Positions 1 to 28,089 of a stretch of 36,023 bases of DNA are shown here, in pieces. The position numbers and the translations under genes are program-made. Under the pieces are notes generated by a model. The model ran no database searches and was not told the origin of the DNA. It saw only the letters and a program-made list of their open reading frames with translations. Position 1 is the stretch's first letter, and every line of letters begins with the position of its first letter. This DNA comes from a virus (lineage: Duplodnaviria > Heunggongvirae > Uroviricota > Caudoviricetes): the IMG/VR virus record IMGVR_UViG_2778261035_000011; one strand, written 5' to 3'.

Positions 1-447
1 TCAGTTTCGTTTACATTTATATGTCTTAAAAATATTCACATCATCTCGGATATAAAGATTTTTTCCTGATTTATCAACGATAAAATACTTTATAACCGCA
101 GGATTTCTAGTCAAAGCATAGAGATAATCAGTCCCTTTAATCTTTTCATCCTTGTCTTGTTCGTCAATTTGGCCTGTTTCTATCTGAGTGTATAGTTCAC
201 CTGTATCAAGGTCTGTCCATGACCCCATATCAACGCCCATATGCATACGAATACCGTGGCAGGTCCAAAAACCAGAGGCAGGGGCTTTATTTGCAACACT
301 CTTATCTGGATCTATCCCGGCGGACCTTAAGACTGCATCAGCAGCCACTTCAGGATCAAAATCTTTTTCTTGAGCGTGATTGACTGAGGAGGCGGTTAGT
401 ACGAATAGGCTGATGATGGTACTGATTAGCAATTTTGATTTTTTCAT
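1..447 (-). CDS. small secreted protein of unknown function (predicted signal peptide, two Cys); possible cargo/moron gene beyond mom
   Basis: ORF 1..477 minus ends with stop at 1-3. Internal ATG at 447 is preceded by a GGAG-like RBS and gives N-terminus MKKSKLLISTIISLFVLTASSVNHA followed by QEK, a typical Sec signal with AxA-like cleavage site. Region is visibly AT-rich compared with the rest of the window. No family recognised. Confidence 0.5.
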   Translation of the reverse strand: MKKSKLLISTIISLFVLTASSVNHAQEKDFDPEVAADAVLRSAGIDPDKSVANKAPASGFWTCHGIRMHMGVDMGSWTDLDTGELYTQIETGQIDEQDKDEKIKGTDYLYALTRNPAVIKYFIVDKSGKNLYIRDDVNIFKTYKCKRN

Positions 448-491
448 CTGATATGCTCCGTATGTGAGTAAATACATAAATTTATATGATA

Positions 492-1229
492 CTAATCAGA
501 ACTGCTTTTTGGGTATGGCTGAATCCTGAATAGATTAGTATTTAGTCGCTTCCTTGCTCGCTTGTTCAGGAACCTGATGTAGCGATACTGATTAAATTTG
601 TGCACCACGGCACGCTCTTTATTAGCCCGTAAATACACGCCTCGTTGTCCACCGCGCTTAATTGCGTTCATCGTTATCTCGTGATACCACTCACCATCCA
701 GCTCGTAGAACGTGCTTTCATGGCTGCCAATAAAATCAAAATTCGACGCCTGATACACAACGCCTGCGCGTCCGCAGCGTTCGTCAGCAAAGGACTGAAC
801 CCACTCCACTGACGGATACAGTAATCTGATAACTTTCAGCGCGTAGCTGATGGCCCGTGATTCAGAGTTGCGGGGCATGTCGTCGTGTAGCCACATGCGA
901 TTCAACTCCATATAGCCCCGGTTATCCGTTTCAAGCACGACACGACGACCTGAGTTGGGGTTAAGGGCATATCCCCACTGGAGAACGCCAACCAGATCGC
1001 GTCCGCTGAATACTCCTAGGTGGAGGTAAGAGTTATTCACAAAACGGCGGGAATAGTGCTTTGTCTGAATAATTGTGCGGGCCAGCCAGCAGGATATGGT
1101 TTCAACGCGCAGCTCCTTTGAACCATAGCCAACAATCTGGCCTTCATACTCAATAACGCACGGTTTCGTCAGAATGCGTGATTTTTTCTCTTTTCCCACA
1201 ATGTTTCTCCGTGGGATGCTCGCAGGCAT
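492..1229 (-). CDS. mom: Mom DNA-modification protein (adenine modification, anti-restriction)
   Basis: Position directly after com with 5' end overlapping the com 3' end, as in phage Mu; length about 235-245 aa. Exact start uncertain: ATG at 1229 or in-frame GTG at 1199. Confidence 0.85.
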
Positions 1230-1338
1230 TCAGCATTATGATGTGACGTTTGCAACGCGGACACCTGATTTCAATGTGATCAAAGGAATCCGCCTTAAAT
1301 AACAGTTTGTTGCAGTTTTTACAGCGAATTGATTTCAT
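1150..1338 (-). CDS. com: Com zinc-finger translational activator of mom
   Basis: 62 aa, [13 protein letters not shown]...CPRCKRH with four-Cys zinc finger; AAAGGAGG RBS upstream of ATG at 1338; 3' end overlaps mom 5' end. Confidence 0.9.
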
Positions 1339-1412
1339 CTCACCTCCTTTGCATCAATTCGCCACTATCTTAAAAAACATCATGGGTTGAGTGTGGTTAT
1401 TGGGGCATAATC

Positions 1413-1447
1413 GATCTGTATTACCGATCGATTTAATTGATTCGATC
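1413..1447. promoter_or_regulatory. cluster of three GATC (Dam) sites in the mom operon upstream control region
   Basis: GATC at 1413-1416, 1426-1429 and 1444-1447, lying 75-110 bp upstream of the com start on the transcribed side and overlapping the gin stop codon. Matches the known Dam/OxyR-controlled region of Mu Pmom. Confidence 0.6.
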
Positions 1448-2014
1448 GTCGTTTTCTATATGCGCTCGTTTCGCGGGGTGTTTTTTATACAGAGTTGACA
1501 GGGCCACATCGTAGATCAATGCAACCTGCTTGCGGGGGATTCCTTGTGCTAATAAACGCCCGGCCTGCTCCCATTCCGCTTTGGTTAGTTTAGGTGGTCG
1601 CCCACCAATACGGCCTTTATTTCTGGCGGCAGCAAGTCCAGCCATCGTTCGCTCGATGATTAGTTCTCGTTCCATTTCAGCCAGGGCACCCATAACGTGG
1701 AAGAAAAAACGCCCCATTGGAGAAGATGTGTCTATGCTGTCGGTCAGACTGCGAAAATTAATCCCTCGCTCCCGTAGTTCCCCGACGAGAGAAATCAGAT
1801 GTTTCATGCTTCGCCCGAGGCGATCCAGTTTCCAGACAACCAGCGTGTCACCTTTTTGAAGGCGTTTTAAAGCGCGTTTTAATCCCGGTCGGTCTGTCTT
1901 TGTCCCGCTTAATTTATCTTCAAATATTTGTTCACATCCTGCACAAACAAGAGCGTTTCGTTGCAGGTCTGTATTCTGGTCATTTGTTGATACCCTTACA
2001 TAGCCAATCAGCAC
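1433..2014 (-). CDS. gin: Gin serine DNA invertase (resolvase/invertase family)
   Basis: 193 aa, N-terminus MLIGYVRVSTNDQNTDLQ with catalytic Ser motif typical of Hin/Gin/Cin invertases; C-terminal HTH; sits immediately outside gixR. Confidence 0.95.
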   Translation of the reverse strand: MLIGYVRVSTNDQNTDLQRNALVCAGCEQIFEDKLSGTKTDRPGLKRALKRLQKGDTLVVWKLDRLGRSMKHLISLVGELRERGINFRSLTDSIDTSSPMGRFFFHVMGALAEMERELIIERTMAGLAAARNKGRIGGRPPKLTKAEWEQAGRLLAQGIPRKQVALIYDVALSTLYKKHPAKRAHIENDDRIN

Positions 2015-9182: not shown

Positions 9183-10662
9183 TAATCACCTCAATACTGA
9201 CACCACCGGGAACAAACAACGGGTTGCTGATACCGTTCCTGCGGGCCAGCCGTTGCCAGTTCCGGCTGTTTCCTGTGTAACGGTACAGAGCCACCATTGC
9301 AGGCATCGTCTCCGGCAGGCGGTGCGTTTCACTGCCCGCCAGTTGCAGCCCGCGTTTTTCCAGGTCGGCAACAACCAGCAGACGCAGTTGCGTAAGCTGA
9401 ACGCTGTCTGTCGAAAAGCCCTGCTCAGATGCCGTCAGAATGACGGTATCCAGCGCTGCCCCCAGCATGGCGGCTGTTTTTCCGATATCGGACACACTTT
9501 CAAATACCGGGGGCGTGGCTGTACCACTGTCTGAAAAGGATACCTGTGAAAAGCCGCCGTCCGGGGTTATGGCAGTTAACTGTAACTGTCCCTGTGTGAC
9601 GGTAGCGGATGTGCTGCTGGCCCCGCTGGCTGTGCCGGTTGTGGTGGACGGGGCATCCAGTACAGGTGCACGGGCGGCATTATCCATCCGGCGACTGAAA
9701 TCCAGTGCCGCAGTCAGTGCCTGGCTTGCTGCCTCCGCCCGGTATGTCTGTGCTGCTGCCAGCATGACGTAGTTCAGTGTGGCAATATTTTTTTCTGCAA
9801 CCGGACTGTTGTACGAGGTTGTGATTGTCCCCTGTCTGCCTGCGGTGGCGGCATGGCGACGTTCGAATCGCTGCGCCAGACGGTTCCATGTGGAAAATGC
9901 TGTCCGGGTATCGCATAACGATGAAACGCCGGACAGCGCCCCCATCAGCGAGGAGGCCAGCATGGCAGGCTGGTTAATCAGGCTGGTCACAGAGCCTTTC
10001 ATCGCAGAAAGCGATCCCATCAGACCGCTGACAGTCTGCGTAACCCCCAGATTGTCCACCGCATCACTGATATCATCGATGACACCGGTTACAGCTTCCA
10101 TCACGGCGGTTGCCGCCGCAGTGCCATCTTTTACGGTCTGCCAGACAGAGGACAGCGTATCTCCCAGAGAACCGGTTACAGCAACGGCCTGTGCCGGTAC
10201 GGCTGCACTGGTGTCTGTCTCTGCGTCCGGGGCAGTATCCTGCAACGACGGATAAACGGTAACGGTGAACGCGTAATAATTCAGTTCATCCGCTTTAGTG
10301 CGGCATTCCCATGAATCCACCATGACGTCCACAGTGCCGAAATCAGGATGTACCAGCTCACCGCTACCCGGAGCATCAAGAGCATCCATCAGCGCACCCG
10401 CTTCATCTCTGGCTGTTTCTGCGTTGCTGTTCAGAATGCAGGCGCTGAATGTACGGGAGCGAAGCTTTTTCCCCAGGTCATTGACGCCGCCGGTATCACG
10501 TAACGGGTACTCGAGTTTAACCAGGCGACGTCCGCCAGCCTGTTTTTGCTCCTCGATGACGAGAAACGGCACGTTACGAAACGTGCCTTTGCCGGTTGTT
10601 TTCTTACCACCGCTGATTTTATCCCGGACAGCATTAACGGCATTTAAAGCATCTTCAAACAT
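9175..10662 (-). CDS. N: DNA circularization protein N (Mu gp43-like)
   Basis: 495 aa; directly downstream of the tape measure gene, as in Mu. Confidence 0.8.
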
Positions 10663-27048: not shown

Positions 27049-27411
27049 TTACCCGAACAGACGAGCGCGAAAACGAAAGGAGAGCCAGAACGTCAGCAAT
27101 CCGGCCAGCGCCCAGATGACATGCTCAGGACCCGTTTTCAGTTGAGACGTTACCATCACGGCTAATCCCAGCCCGGACAGACTCCCCAGCCAGGTCAGCG
27201 GCCAGACGAACCGGGCAAAATGTTCAGGCACCCGGCAGCTCATTATCAGCGCATCCAGACAATCACCGGCAACACATAAAGCAACACTGAAAACCGAGGC
27301 ACAGCAAAACATCAGCGCGCGCCAGCCACAAAACAGACTTATCCACAATAACAGCGCCAGTAACACCACCGATAAAAAATCAGGCCACTGACGAGCAGAA
27401 CGCTCAGACAT
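27049..27411 (-). CDS. multi-pass membrane protein in middle operon (holin-like candidate)
   Basis: 120 aa from ATG 27411 (GGGAG RBS); several hydrophobic helices; the track's longer start is a TTG. Confidence 0.5.
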   Translation of the reverse strand: MSERSARQWPDFLSVVLLALLLWISLFCGWRALMFCCASVFSVALCVAGDCLDALIMSCRVPEHFARFVWPLTWLGSLSGLGLAVMVTSQLKTGPEHVIWALAGLLTFWLSFRFRARLFG

Positions 27412-27622
27412 AATGTTTCTCCCTGTAAAGCAGGCAATGATGAAGAATTTCCGGCATATCAACTGACTGCCAGCCTTTCATGTAATAACTGCCGTGGGTG
27501 CCATCATGACCGGTATAGTCGCGGGGCGCAGGACGTGGCCCACCGGCGACACGGTGCAAAACCTCCTGACGCAGCCGCTCACGTCTGCCAAGATGAAAGG
27601 ATGCATTCCAGCCTTTACCCAT
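27404..27622 (-). CDS. hypothetical protein, first gene of middle operon
   Basis: 72 aa; ATG 27622 with GGGGGA RBS; lies just downstream of the early terminator. Confidence 0.45.
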   Translation of the reverse strand: MGKGWNASFHLGRRERLRQEVLHRVAGGPRPAPRDYTGHDGTHGSYYMKGWQSVDMPEILHHCLLYREKHYV

Positions 27623-27669
27623 GATGATTTCCCCCGGTACGGTTATTCATCACAGGATATTGAGGACGT
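27623..27669 (-). promoter_or_regulatory. expected Mor-dependent middle promoter Pm (positional)
   Basis: Short gap between the early-operon terminator and the first middle-operon gene; Mu Pm is recalled to lie just after the early terminator; no motif verified. Confidence 0.35.
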
Positions 27670-27694
27670 AAAAAAAGCCGGATTAACCGGCTTT
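27670..27694 (-). terminator. rho-independent terminator of the early operon, immediately after mor
   Basis: Minus-strand RNA AAAGCCGG-UUAAU-CCGGCUUU followed by a 7-U tract (plus-strand A run 27670-27676); 6 nt downstream of the mor stop. Confidence 0.7.
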
Positions 27695-27699
27695 ACTGT

Positions 27700-28089
27700 T
27701 TACAGAAGTGAGGGCTGGTACTGGCGGTATTTCAGCCGTCGCATCCGGCGAATGGCCTTGTAAACCGTATTGAAAGTGACACCATAACGGGTGGTCAGTT
27801 CGCTGACGTTGCGACCGTTAAAATCATTCCAGATACGCAAATCCCGAATCAGCGAGTCCAGAACCTGACCGCGTGGAATGTAGACCTGACCGCCGCCCAG
27901 ATGCTTACAGATAGCCACAACAATCTCCAGTGAATGGGCAGGATCAACACCCAGCCGGGACAATTCCCCGCGTAGTAAATCGTTCAGCTCCGCCAGCAGT
28001 GCCGGAAAGCGTGACGTATCCTCTGCGGGATTGTCAAGATGTGCCAGGATGGTGTCATCCTGCAAATCACCAAATAAATCTTCCGTCAT
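27700..28089 (-). CDS. mor: middle operon regulator Mor (Mor/C family transcription activator)
   Basis: 129 aa; paralogous to C (26485..26907); last gene before the early terminator, as in Mu. Confidence 0.85.
   Translation of the reverse strand: MTEDLFGDLQDDTILAHLDNPAEDTSRFPALLAELNDLLRGELSRLGVDPAHSLEIVVAICKHLGGGQVYIPRGQVLDSLIRDLRIWNDFNGRNVSELTTRYGVTFNTVYKAIRRMRRLKYRQYQPSLL

What the first reader, a model, noticed from the sequence alone, without database searches (positions are those of the whole stretch)
1..491. AT-rich secreted-protein gene beyond mom, where canonical Mu would end
In Mu as I recall it, mom is the last gene and the right end follows within about 100 bp. Here a complete gene (4..447, minus strand) follows the mom stop by 44 bp. 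It has its own RBS, encodes a signal peptide and a roughly 120-aa mature protein with two Cys, and is much more AT-rich than the phage. No Mu right-end sequence is visible in 1..491. It may be co-transcribed with com-mom or have its own promoter. This is a candidate moron (lysogenic conversion, superinfection exclusion or periplasmic factor).
Basis: partly seen in the sequence, partly recalled or inferred. Interest (0 to 1): 0.65.

Follow-up and report, generated by a model that had tools for sequence, protein, structure and literature searches.

The report
D108 gene 56: exported phage accessory protein
The extra gene after mom is real, but it is the already-annotated "gene 56, D108-specific protein" of D108-type Mu phages: a small exported beta-barrel protein of unknown function that lies inside the phage's right end and occurs only in Mu-like phages.

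Summary
Window 1..447 (minus strand) is a complete 148-codon gene, 44 bp after mom. It has a GGAG ribosome-binding site, a signal-peptide-like N-terminus and two invariant Cys, and is 39% GC against 52% for the window.

It is not new. It is 100% identical to gene 56 ("D108-specific protein") of reference phage D108. It is also present in PhiR68_1, Mu_3F6, two Yersinia Mu-like phages and 6 of 5,426 complete E. coli genomes. Mu and SfMu lack it.

The Mu-type right end is not missing. It starts 92-93 nt beyond the stop codon, just outside the window, and in four prophages a different disrupted host gene follows it.

The family is tiny (12 clusters among 1.84 billion representatives) and was found only in Mu-like prophages. 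All members more distant than 89% identity sit between gemA and the C-like activator.

Best reading: an exported periplasmic binder or inhibitor made during lytic growth. The function is inferred, not shown. Interest is low to moderate.

The parts
1..447 (-). Gene 56 (D108-specific protein), 148 codons plus a stop codon at 1..3
   Evidence: ORF. 100% identical protein in D108, Mu_3F6 and vB_YpM_3/23. PHROG 15648 at E=7.6e-88. Family alignment A1.
373..447 (-). Signal-peptide coding part (residues 1 to about 25; cleavage predicted after A19-S21 or after VNHA25)
   Evidence: An n/h/c layout is kept in all 20 family members scored. AlphaFold pLDDT is below 50 for residues 1-28. SignalP was not available.
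4..279 (-). Conserved domain (residues 57-148): predicted 8-stranded antiparallel beta-barrel carrying the invariant G59-x-W61, C63, C145, K146 and R147
456..459 (-). Shine-Dalgarno GGAG, 8 nt upstream of the ATG
   Evidence: Read directly from the sequence.
448..491 (-). 44-bp mom/gene-56 spacer (27% GC). No promoter-like or terminator-like site. Its mom-proximal part (478-491) is homologous to the innermost TTTGATAC site of another Mu-like lineage.
492..1338 (-). com (1150..1338) and mom (492..1229), the upstream late operon from which gene 56 is most simply transcribed by read-through. Mom ends PYPKSSSD here, against PYPK in Mu.
   Evidence: Pfam Mom at 2.7e-75 and Zn_ribbon_Com at 2.7e-09. 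No terminator between mom and gene 56. C-termini read.

Best explanation
Window 1..447 is gene 56 of D108-type Mu phages. It is an accessory cargo gene inside the transposable phage genome, between mom and the Mu-type right end (attR). This is shown, with confidence of about 0.98.

Its product is made with a Sec-type signal peptide, which is cleaved by signal peptidase I. The released protein of about 14 kDa goes to the periplasm. Its conserved C-terminal part of about 90 residues folds into a small 8-stranded calycin-like beta-barrel. The two invariant cysteines probably form a disulfide. This is inferred from sequence and an AlphaFold model, with confidence of about 0.8.

In this phage the insert brought only a ribosome-binding site and the coding sequence. 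The gene is therefore most simply transcribed as the third cistron of the C-activated late com-mom operon. In nearly all other family members it is the last gene of the early operon, between gemA and the terminator that precedes the C-like activator. This is inferred, with confidence of about 0.5.

The family is confined to Mu-like phages and is placed in lytic transcription units. The most likely role is therefore a periplasmic binder or inhibitor that acts on the envelope of the infected cell during lytic development. Possible actions are exclusion of superinfecting phage or neutralising an envelope-acting enzyme or ligand. Classic lysogenic conversion is less likely. This step is speculative, with confidence of about 0.3.
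For: Identity and position:
- Megablast gives 99.9% to PhiR68_1 and 98.5% to D108, with gene 56 annotated under the match.
- tblastn gives 100% identity to D108 gp56.
- The Mu-type end lies 92-93 nt past the stop. It is followed by four different disrupted host genes: yjiT, a carbamate kinase gene, a PTS IIC gene and ldtD.
- Mu and SfMu lack the gene.

Export and fold:
- Signal-peptide layout is kept across 20 diverged members.
- C63 and C145 are invariant.
- The AlphaFold barrel has pLDDT above 90.
- Invariant G59-x-W61 in strand 1 and K146/R147 in the last strand match, from my own knowledge, the calycin signature of a first-strand Trp packed against a last-strand Arg or Lys.

Expression:
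- No promoter-like or terminator-like site lies between mom and the gene, and the junction RNA has no special structure.
- The insert relative to Mu is about 490 bp, that is the ribosome-binding site plus the gene.

Phage-specific role:
- About 40 loci carry family members and all are Mu-like prophages.
- There is no plasmid hit.
- Only 12 clusters were found among 1.84e9 representatives.
- In the gemA-X-C slot the gene lies on the early-operon strand, 1-95 nt after gemA, and is followed by a conserved hairpin plus T-run and a TATAAT-like box before C.
Against: - No sequence or fold match assigns a function. Pfam, NCBIfam, PADLOC, the PDB profile search, Foldseek against PDB and BFVD, and hhalign against MliC are all negative or insignificant.
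- One clade (P0011/P0013) has the gene antisense to the early operon with 150-180 nt upstream. It must have its own promoter and could be expressed in lysogens.
- In two decayed prophages (L028, L035) com and the 5' half of mom, and hence the mom promoter, are deleted while the gene is intact. Read-through from the mom promoter therefore cannot be the only mode of expression.
- The consensus promoter scan is crude, so a weak promoter in the AT-rich spacer is not excluded.
- Signal-peptide cleavage, the disulfide and periplasmic location are predictions only.
Confidence: 0.55

Rival explanations
1. Classic moron or lysogenic-conversion gene. It would be transcribed from its own promoter in the repressed prophage and give the lysogen a periplasmic fitness factor.
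For: - It is an AT-rich insert absent from Mu.
- Homologues are always 5-14 GC points below their prophage.
- In the P0011/P0013 clade the gene is antisense to the early operon, bracketed by hairpins, with 150-180 nt of upstream DNA.
- The gene survives intact in two decayed prophages that have lost com, the 5' half of mom and the mom promoter.
Against: - No sigma-70-like site lies upstream in the window or in D108, and no terminator lies on either side.
- The insert carries only about 30 nt of 5' leader.
- In most loci the gene is co-oriented with the early operon and tightly packed into it, once only 1 nt after gemA.
- The family has never been seen outside Mu-like phages, unlike general conversion genes.
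Confidence: 0.2
2. Periplasmic inhibitor of a peptidoglycan hydrolase, working like PliC/MliC or PhiA. For example, it could block the lysozyme of a superinfecting phage's tail or modulate the phage's own endolysin.
For: - Location, size and fold class are the same.
- In most loci the gene lies two genes upstream of the phage lysozyme gene.
Against: - No Pfam MliC hit was found for any of 15 members.
- hhalign of the family against E. coli MliC aligns only 4 signal-peptide residues, with probability 2%.
- The S58-G59 and K104-G105 motifs only loosely recall, from my own memory of those families, the PliC/MliC SxSGAxY and TKG motifs, and they lie on different strands.
Confidence: 0.12
3. Lipocalin-like carrier that binds a small hydrophobic or anionic ligand in the periplasm, such as a lipid, an LPS intermediate, a siderophore or a cofactor.
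For: - Calycin-like G-x-W plus last-strand K/R signature, and invariant aromatic residues W61, W77, Y108, F122 and Y143.
Against: - The barrel is only about 90 residues and lacks the C-terminal helix of true lipocalins.
- No lipocalin Pfam hit was found.
- There is no obvious reason why such a carrier would be confined to Mu-like phages.
Confidence: 0.12
4. Chance ORF, host-flank pseudo-ORF or decaying remnant with no function.
For: There is no functional annotation anywhere, and the gene is dispensable because Mu lacks it.
Against: - It lies inside the phage ends at four independent insertion sites.
- The reading frame, the signal peptide and 25 invariant residues are kept down to 43% identity.
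- There are 0-1 nt changes among 7 copies.
Confidence: 0.01

Closest known systems
Gene 56 'D108-specific protein' of Escherichia phage D108 (GQ357916 / NC_013594, ACV50316.1); PHROG 15648; WP_016024192.1
   Same: The protein is 100% identical and has the same position between mom and attR. There is a full-length PHROG match.
   Different: Nothing differs. The window is a D108-type phage nearest to PhiR68_1. No function is recorded for any of these entries, and no paper on it was found.
Calycin superfamily (lipocalins, fatty-acid-binding proteins, avidins, bacterial periplasmic metalloprotease inhibitors)
PliC/MliC periplasmic lysozyme inhibitors
   Different: There is no Pfam or hhalign relationship. 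The motifs are not in equivalent positions, and inhibition is untested.
Phage morons and early exclusion proteins acting in the envelope (lambda bor/lom; T4 Sp and Imm; T5 Llp) - from my own knowledge
   Same: A small accessory phage gene with foreign composition whose product is targeted to the cell envelope. Like T4 sp/imm and T5 llp, most family members sit in an early lytic operon.
   Different: There is no sequence or fold similarity to any of them. It has no own promoter or terminator in this phage, and no exclusion phenotype is known.

Membership tests
D108 gp56 / PHROG 15648 family | Full-length sequence similarity to the family profile or reference protein | tested here: met
   100% identity to D108 gp56. 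PHROG 15648 at E=7.6e-88 over residues 1-148 of 148.
D108 gp56 / PHROG 15648 family | Location between mom and the Mu-type right end, inside the prophage | tested here: met
   Same layout in D108, PhiR68_1 and four E. coli prophages (N61, A20, N1286, Esc30), with the phage end 92-93 nt past the stop.
Moron (sense of Juhala/Hendrix; definition from my own knowledge) | Extra gene present between elements that are adjacent in related phages | tested here: met
   Mu and SfMu go from the mom stop to attR in about 115 bp. Here about 490 bp is inserted.
Moron (sense of Juhala/Hendrix; definition from my own knowledge) | Nucleotide composition different from the surrounding phage | tested here: met
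   39.1% against 52.0% GC, in the lowest 1.7% of windows. The same holds for 8 homologues.
Moron (sense of Juhala/Hendrix; definition from my own knowledge) | Own promoter and own terminator flanking the gene | tested here: not met
   No promoter-like site upstream and no terminator on either side in the window or D108. The scan is consensus-only, so weak signals are not excluded. Some homologues in the other slot do have flanking hairpins.
Moron (sense of Juhala/Hendrix; definition from my own knowledge) | Expression from the repressed prophage | not testable with these tools
   This needs RNA-seq or a reporter in lysogens.
Sec/SPase I secreted protein | Basic n-region, hydrophobic h-region of 10 or more residues, small residues at -1/-3 of a c-region, no lipobox Cys | tested here: met
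   MKKSK / LLISTIISLFVLTA / SS-VNHA|Q, with candidate cleavage sites after residues 19-21 (A19, S20, S21) that satisfy the -1/-3 rule, and after VNHA25, which has A at -1 but N at -3. There is no Cys before residue 63. The layout is kept in 19 homologues. This was a heuristic only; SignalP and experiment were not available.
PliC/MliC lysozyme inhibitors (Pfam PF09864) | Match to the family profile or to a member | tested here: not met
   No Pfam hit for 15 members at E<=5. hhalign against E. coli MliC gives probability 2%.
PliC/MliC lysozyme inhibitors (Pfam PF09864) | 8-stranded beta-barrel fold | tested here: inconclusive
PliC/MliC lysozyme inhibitors (Pfam PF09864) | Inhibition of c-type lysozyme | not testable with these tools
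   A biochemical assay is needed.
Lipocalins / calycins | Match to lipocalin sequence profiles | tested here: not met
   No Pfam hit and no PDB profile hit.
Lipocalins / calycins | 8-stranded antiparallel barrel with a first-strand Trp and a last-strand Arg/Lys (the structural signature, from my own knowledge) | tested here: inconclusive
   The predicted topology and the invariant G59-x-W61 and K146/R147 fit. The packing could not be inspected because no coordinates were available.
Outer-membrane 8-stranded barrels (OmpX/Ail/Lom) | Long amphipathic strands, hydrophobic exterior, C-terminal aromatic beta-signal | tested here: not met
   Strands are 4-9 residues long. The mature protein has 17 K+R and 21 D+E among 123 residues and ends ...KCKRN.

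The most novel reading that the evidence does not exclude
gp56 founds a Mu-phage-specific family of periplasmic mini-calycin barrels. These would be a new kind of phage-encoded envelope effector made during lytic growth, for example a superinfection-exclusion factor or an inhibitor of an envelope-acting enzyme. The cassette has hopped between two cargo slots of transposable phages: the end of the early operon and the position after mom.
Probability: 0.25. Interest if true: 0.5.

Novelty: already known. Interest (0 to 1): 0.25.

Why it matters
The finding mainly clears up an apparent anomaly. The window is a D108-type Mu phage, nearest to PhiR68_1. Its right end is normal for that type and lies just outside the window.

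What remains open is modest but real. Gene 56 belongs to a very small orphan family confined to Mu-like phages. It is predicted to be exported to the periplasm, and nobody has tested its function. A simple deletion and over-expression study in D108 or PhiR68_1, with Mu as a natural minus control, could show whether transposable phages carry an envelope-directed exclusion or inhibitor protein.

Tried and rejected
Searches that assigned no function:
- Pfam, NCBIfam and PADLOC scans of the protein, and Pfam on all 15 aligned members.
- Profile search of PDB sequences. The only hit had E=0.26.
- Foldseek against PDB and BFVD, with nothing at E<=0.001. AFDB50 was not available.
- hhalign of the family against E. 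coli MliC, which aligned only 4 signal-peptide residues.
- Rfam on window 1-1500, which gave only a sub-threshold IS102 hit at 1364-1449.
- RNA fold of the mom/gene-56 junction, z-score -0.76.

Literature:
- Searches for D108 gp56, its accession numbers, PhiR68 and the Yersinia Mu-like phages found no statement about this gene.
- The 1981 Mu/D108 heteroduplex paper (PMC171019) is not held.

Readings considered and rejected:
- Outer-membrane barrel of the Lom/Ail type: the strands are too short and the protein is highly charged.
- A C63-x5-H69-M70 metal site: in the predicted hairpin of strands 1 and 2, C63 and H69/M70 lie at opposite ends, so this was not pursued.
- The longer 158-aa start at 477: it has no Shine-Dalgarno sequence and homologues do not use it.

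An argument I do not rely on: gene 56 has no differences between two haplotype groups whose mom differs at 21-23 sites, where about 10.5 differences would be expected (Poisson P about 3e-5). However, the differences cluster at window 534-1017 and another 385-nt stretch is also identical. This looks like ordinary recombination patchwork, so I do not use it as evidence for a recent sweep.

Full report
**1. What is in the window**

Bases 1..447 on the minus strand carry a complete ORF of 148 codons. The stop codon is the first three bases of the window. Upstream on the same strand lie three Mu genes:
- mom at 492..1229 (Pfam Mom, E=2.7e-75);
- com at 1150..1338 (Zn_ribbon_Com);
- a Gin-type invertase at 1433..2014.

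The spacer between mom and the ORF is 44 bp (448..491). A GGAG motif at 456..459 lies 8 nt before the ATG.

The N-terminus (MKKSK-LLISTIISLFVLTA-SSVNHA|QE) has the three-part layout of a Sec signal peptide and no lipobox cysteine. The mature protein would be 123-128 aa, acidic (pI about 5.1-5.3), with two Cys.

The gene is 39.1% GC (GC3 33.6%), against 52.0% for the window and 49.3% (GC3 54.9%) for mom. That puts it in the lowest 1.7% of 447-nt windows.

**2. It is a known gene, and the right end is not missing**

Megablast of window 1-1400 gives the following:
- 99.9% to Escherichia phage PhiR68_1;
- 98.5% to the reference phage D108, where the ORF is annotated "56: D108-specific protein";
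- 98% to Mu_3F6 and to Yersinia phages vB_YpM_3 and vB_YpM_23.

The protein is 100% identical in D108, Mu_3F6 and the two Yersinia phages.

Mu, SfMu and three other Yersinia phages match only from window position 478-511 onward, so they lack the gene.

In D108, PhiR68_1 and four E. coli prophages (six complete E. coli genomes carry the gene; four were inspected), the Mu-type terminal sequence with its annotated transposase-binding sites starts 92-93 nt beyond the stop codon. In the four prophages it is followed by four different disrupted host genes: yjiT, a carbamate kinase gene, a PTS IIC gene and ldtD.

The gene therefore travels inside the transposable phage, and the window simply ends at its stop codon.

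**3. Anatomy of the insertion**

Alignment of the Mu and D108 ends shows homology through the first roughly 88 bp, the attR region, and then divergence.

On the mom side, homology to other Mu-like phages resumes at about window 478. The insert relative to Mu is about 490 bp, which is about 30 nt of leader with the ribosome-binding site plus the coding sequence.

Neither the window nor D108 shows a sigma-70-like site upstream of the gene or a terminator-like hairpin between mom and the gene or after it. The junction RNA has no unusual structure.

The simplest inference is transcription by read-through from the late, C-dependent com-mom promoter. This is an inference, not a demonstration.

**4. 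The family and where it lives**

The word-indexed search found 16 clusters. An exhaustive HMM search of 1.84 billion representatives with the family profile found only 12. Sources are Escherichia, Citrobacter, Salmonella, Hafnia, Kluyvera and Apirhabdus.

PHROGs holds it as family 15648, function unknown. There is no plasmid copy. Of 5,426 complete E. coli genomes, 97 carry com-mom but only 6 carry this gene.

I classified about 40 loci by tblastn with D108 proteins and by the precomputed Pfam context. Every one is a Mu-like prophage.
- Only the clade at 89% identity or more sits after mom.
- All more distant members (26-76% identity) sit between gemA and the C-like activator that precedes the lysozyme gene.
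- Usually they are on the early-operon strand, 1-95 nt after gemA. A conserved hairpin with a T-run and a TATAAT-like box follows, ahead of C.
- In one clade (P0011/P0013) the gene is inverted and bracketed by two hairpin copies.
- Homologues are always 5-14 GC points below their prophage.

The cassette is thus a Mu-phage-specific cargo gene that occupies two alternative slots. The right-end slot looks derived.

**5. The protein**

The alignment has 25 invariant columns, including G59, W61, C63, H69, W77, Y108, F122, Y143, C145, K146 and R147. The signal peptides and the 30-residue linker after them vary freely, and several members lack the linker.

AlphaFold2 with this alignment gives pLDDT 90 or above over most of residues 61-148. 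The model has eight consecutive beta-strands with short connections, preceded by one short helix.

Foldseek against PDB and BFVD finds nothing significant.

The G-x-W in strand 1 and the invariant K/R in the last strand fit what I recall as the calycin structural signature. I could not inspect coordinates. Sequence-level tests against Pfam, PDB and E. coli MliC are negative.

I therefore describe it as calycin-like in fold class and do not file it in any family.

**6. How it most likely works**

- Shown: it is D108 gene 56, inside the phage, conserved as a coding sequence.
- Inferred with good support: Sec export, signal-peptide cleavage, and a soluble periplasmic barrel probably stabilised by a C63-C145 disulfide.
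- Inferred with moderate support: expression during lytic development, late through com-mom here and early in most relatives.
- Speculative: it binds a periplasmic target to protect or condition the envelope of the infected cell, by superinfection exclusion or by neutralising an envelope-acting enzyme or ligand. This would parallel the early envelope proteins of T4 (Sp, Imm) and T5 (Llp), a comparison from my own knowledge.

Evidence that cuts the other way:
- The inverted clade must have its own promoter.
- Two decayed prophages (L028, L035) have independently lost com, the 5' half of mom and therefore the mom promoter, yet keep the gene intact downstream of gin.

Expression in lysogens is therefore not excluded.

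**7. Novelty and score**

The feature is already annotated in a reference genome and in PHROGs. Its function is unknown and, as far as the searchable literature shows, unstudied.

A Mu specialist would not be surprised that D108 differs from Mu at this spot. The phage-restricted distribution and the predicted periplasmic barrel give it modest residual interest.

Interest is 0.25 and novelty is "already known".

Noticed in passing
window 478-520; L022 1420-1510; L023 1422-1510; L015 1150-1520; L016 520-615: A second lineage of E. coli and Yersinia Mu-like phages (E. coli S6 and FDAARGOS_1059 prophages, vB_YpM_5, vB_YpM_6, Tongde) ends about 77 bp after mom. Its right end starts TAAAGCGCGCAAAATC and carries three TTTGATAC repeats instead of Mu-type CGAAA sites. 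The window's mom/gene-56 spacer (aaatttatatgatactaatc) is homologous to the innermost repeat. The D108-type right end therefore looks like a mosaic: mom plus the remnant of one end type, then gene 56, then a Mu-type attR.
   Followed up: partly
window 492-520 (Mom C-terminus): Mom ends ...PYPKSSSD here and in D108. It ends ...PYPKSTPD in the TTTGATAC-end lineage, but ...PYPK in Mu. The recombination breakpoint with Mu lies at the last codons of mom.
   Followed up: partly
L005 5909-5937 and 6463-6489; L007 5883-5910 and 6434-6457; downstream of the gene in L010, L013, L018, L019, L029, L031 and L036: In the gemA-X-C slot a conserved hairpin, AAATCCCGC-N6-8-GCGGGATTTTTT, directly abuts a TATAAT/TATACT box about 35-40 nt before the C-like gene. 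It looks like the early-operon terminator fused to the promoter of the activator gene. In some prophages a second copy brackets the cassette on the other side.
   Followed up: partly
L028 1-700; L035 3052-3911: Two decayed prophages have independent deletions that fuse a truncated gin to the 3' part of mom. Both deletions remove com, the 5' half of mom and the mom promoter. The gene-56 homologue (89% identical) stays intact behind a longer 92-nt spacer. In L035 the terminal CTTCA of the phage end is also changed.
   Followed up: partly
L024 (D108) 9297-9999, equivalent to window about 27050-27750: In Mu and D108, the slot that holds this family in other prophages (between the early operon and C) instead holds gp18-gp20. 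By eye, gp19 is a multi-pass membrane protein and gp20 a single-pass one. That slot therefore seems to collect envelope-directed accessory genes.
   Followed up: no
window about 2090-2900: From about 2090 onward the window diverges almost completely from D108, although the flanking gin-com-mom region is 98-100% identical. This is the invertible G-segment and tail-fibre region. The phage therefore carries a different variable tail-fibre part, and probably a different host range, from D108.
   Followed up: no
window 534-1017 compared with 1-447 and 1018-1402: The differences between the window/PhiR68_1/N61 group and the D108/A20/Esc30 group are patchy. There are 20 substitutions within 534-1017, one at 450, none in gene 56 and none in 1018-1402. 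This is the recombination mosaicism typical of these phages.
   Followed up: partly
L021 5069-5803: In Kluyvera prophages about 1 kb of extra cargo lies between gemA and the gene-56 homologue. It consists of a 109-aa ORF and an oppositely oriented 140-aa ORF. Neither was characterised.
   Followed up: no
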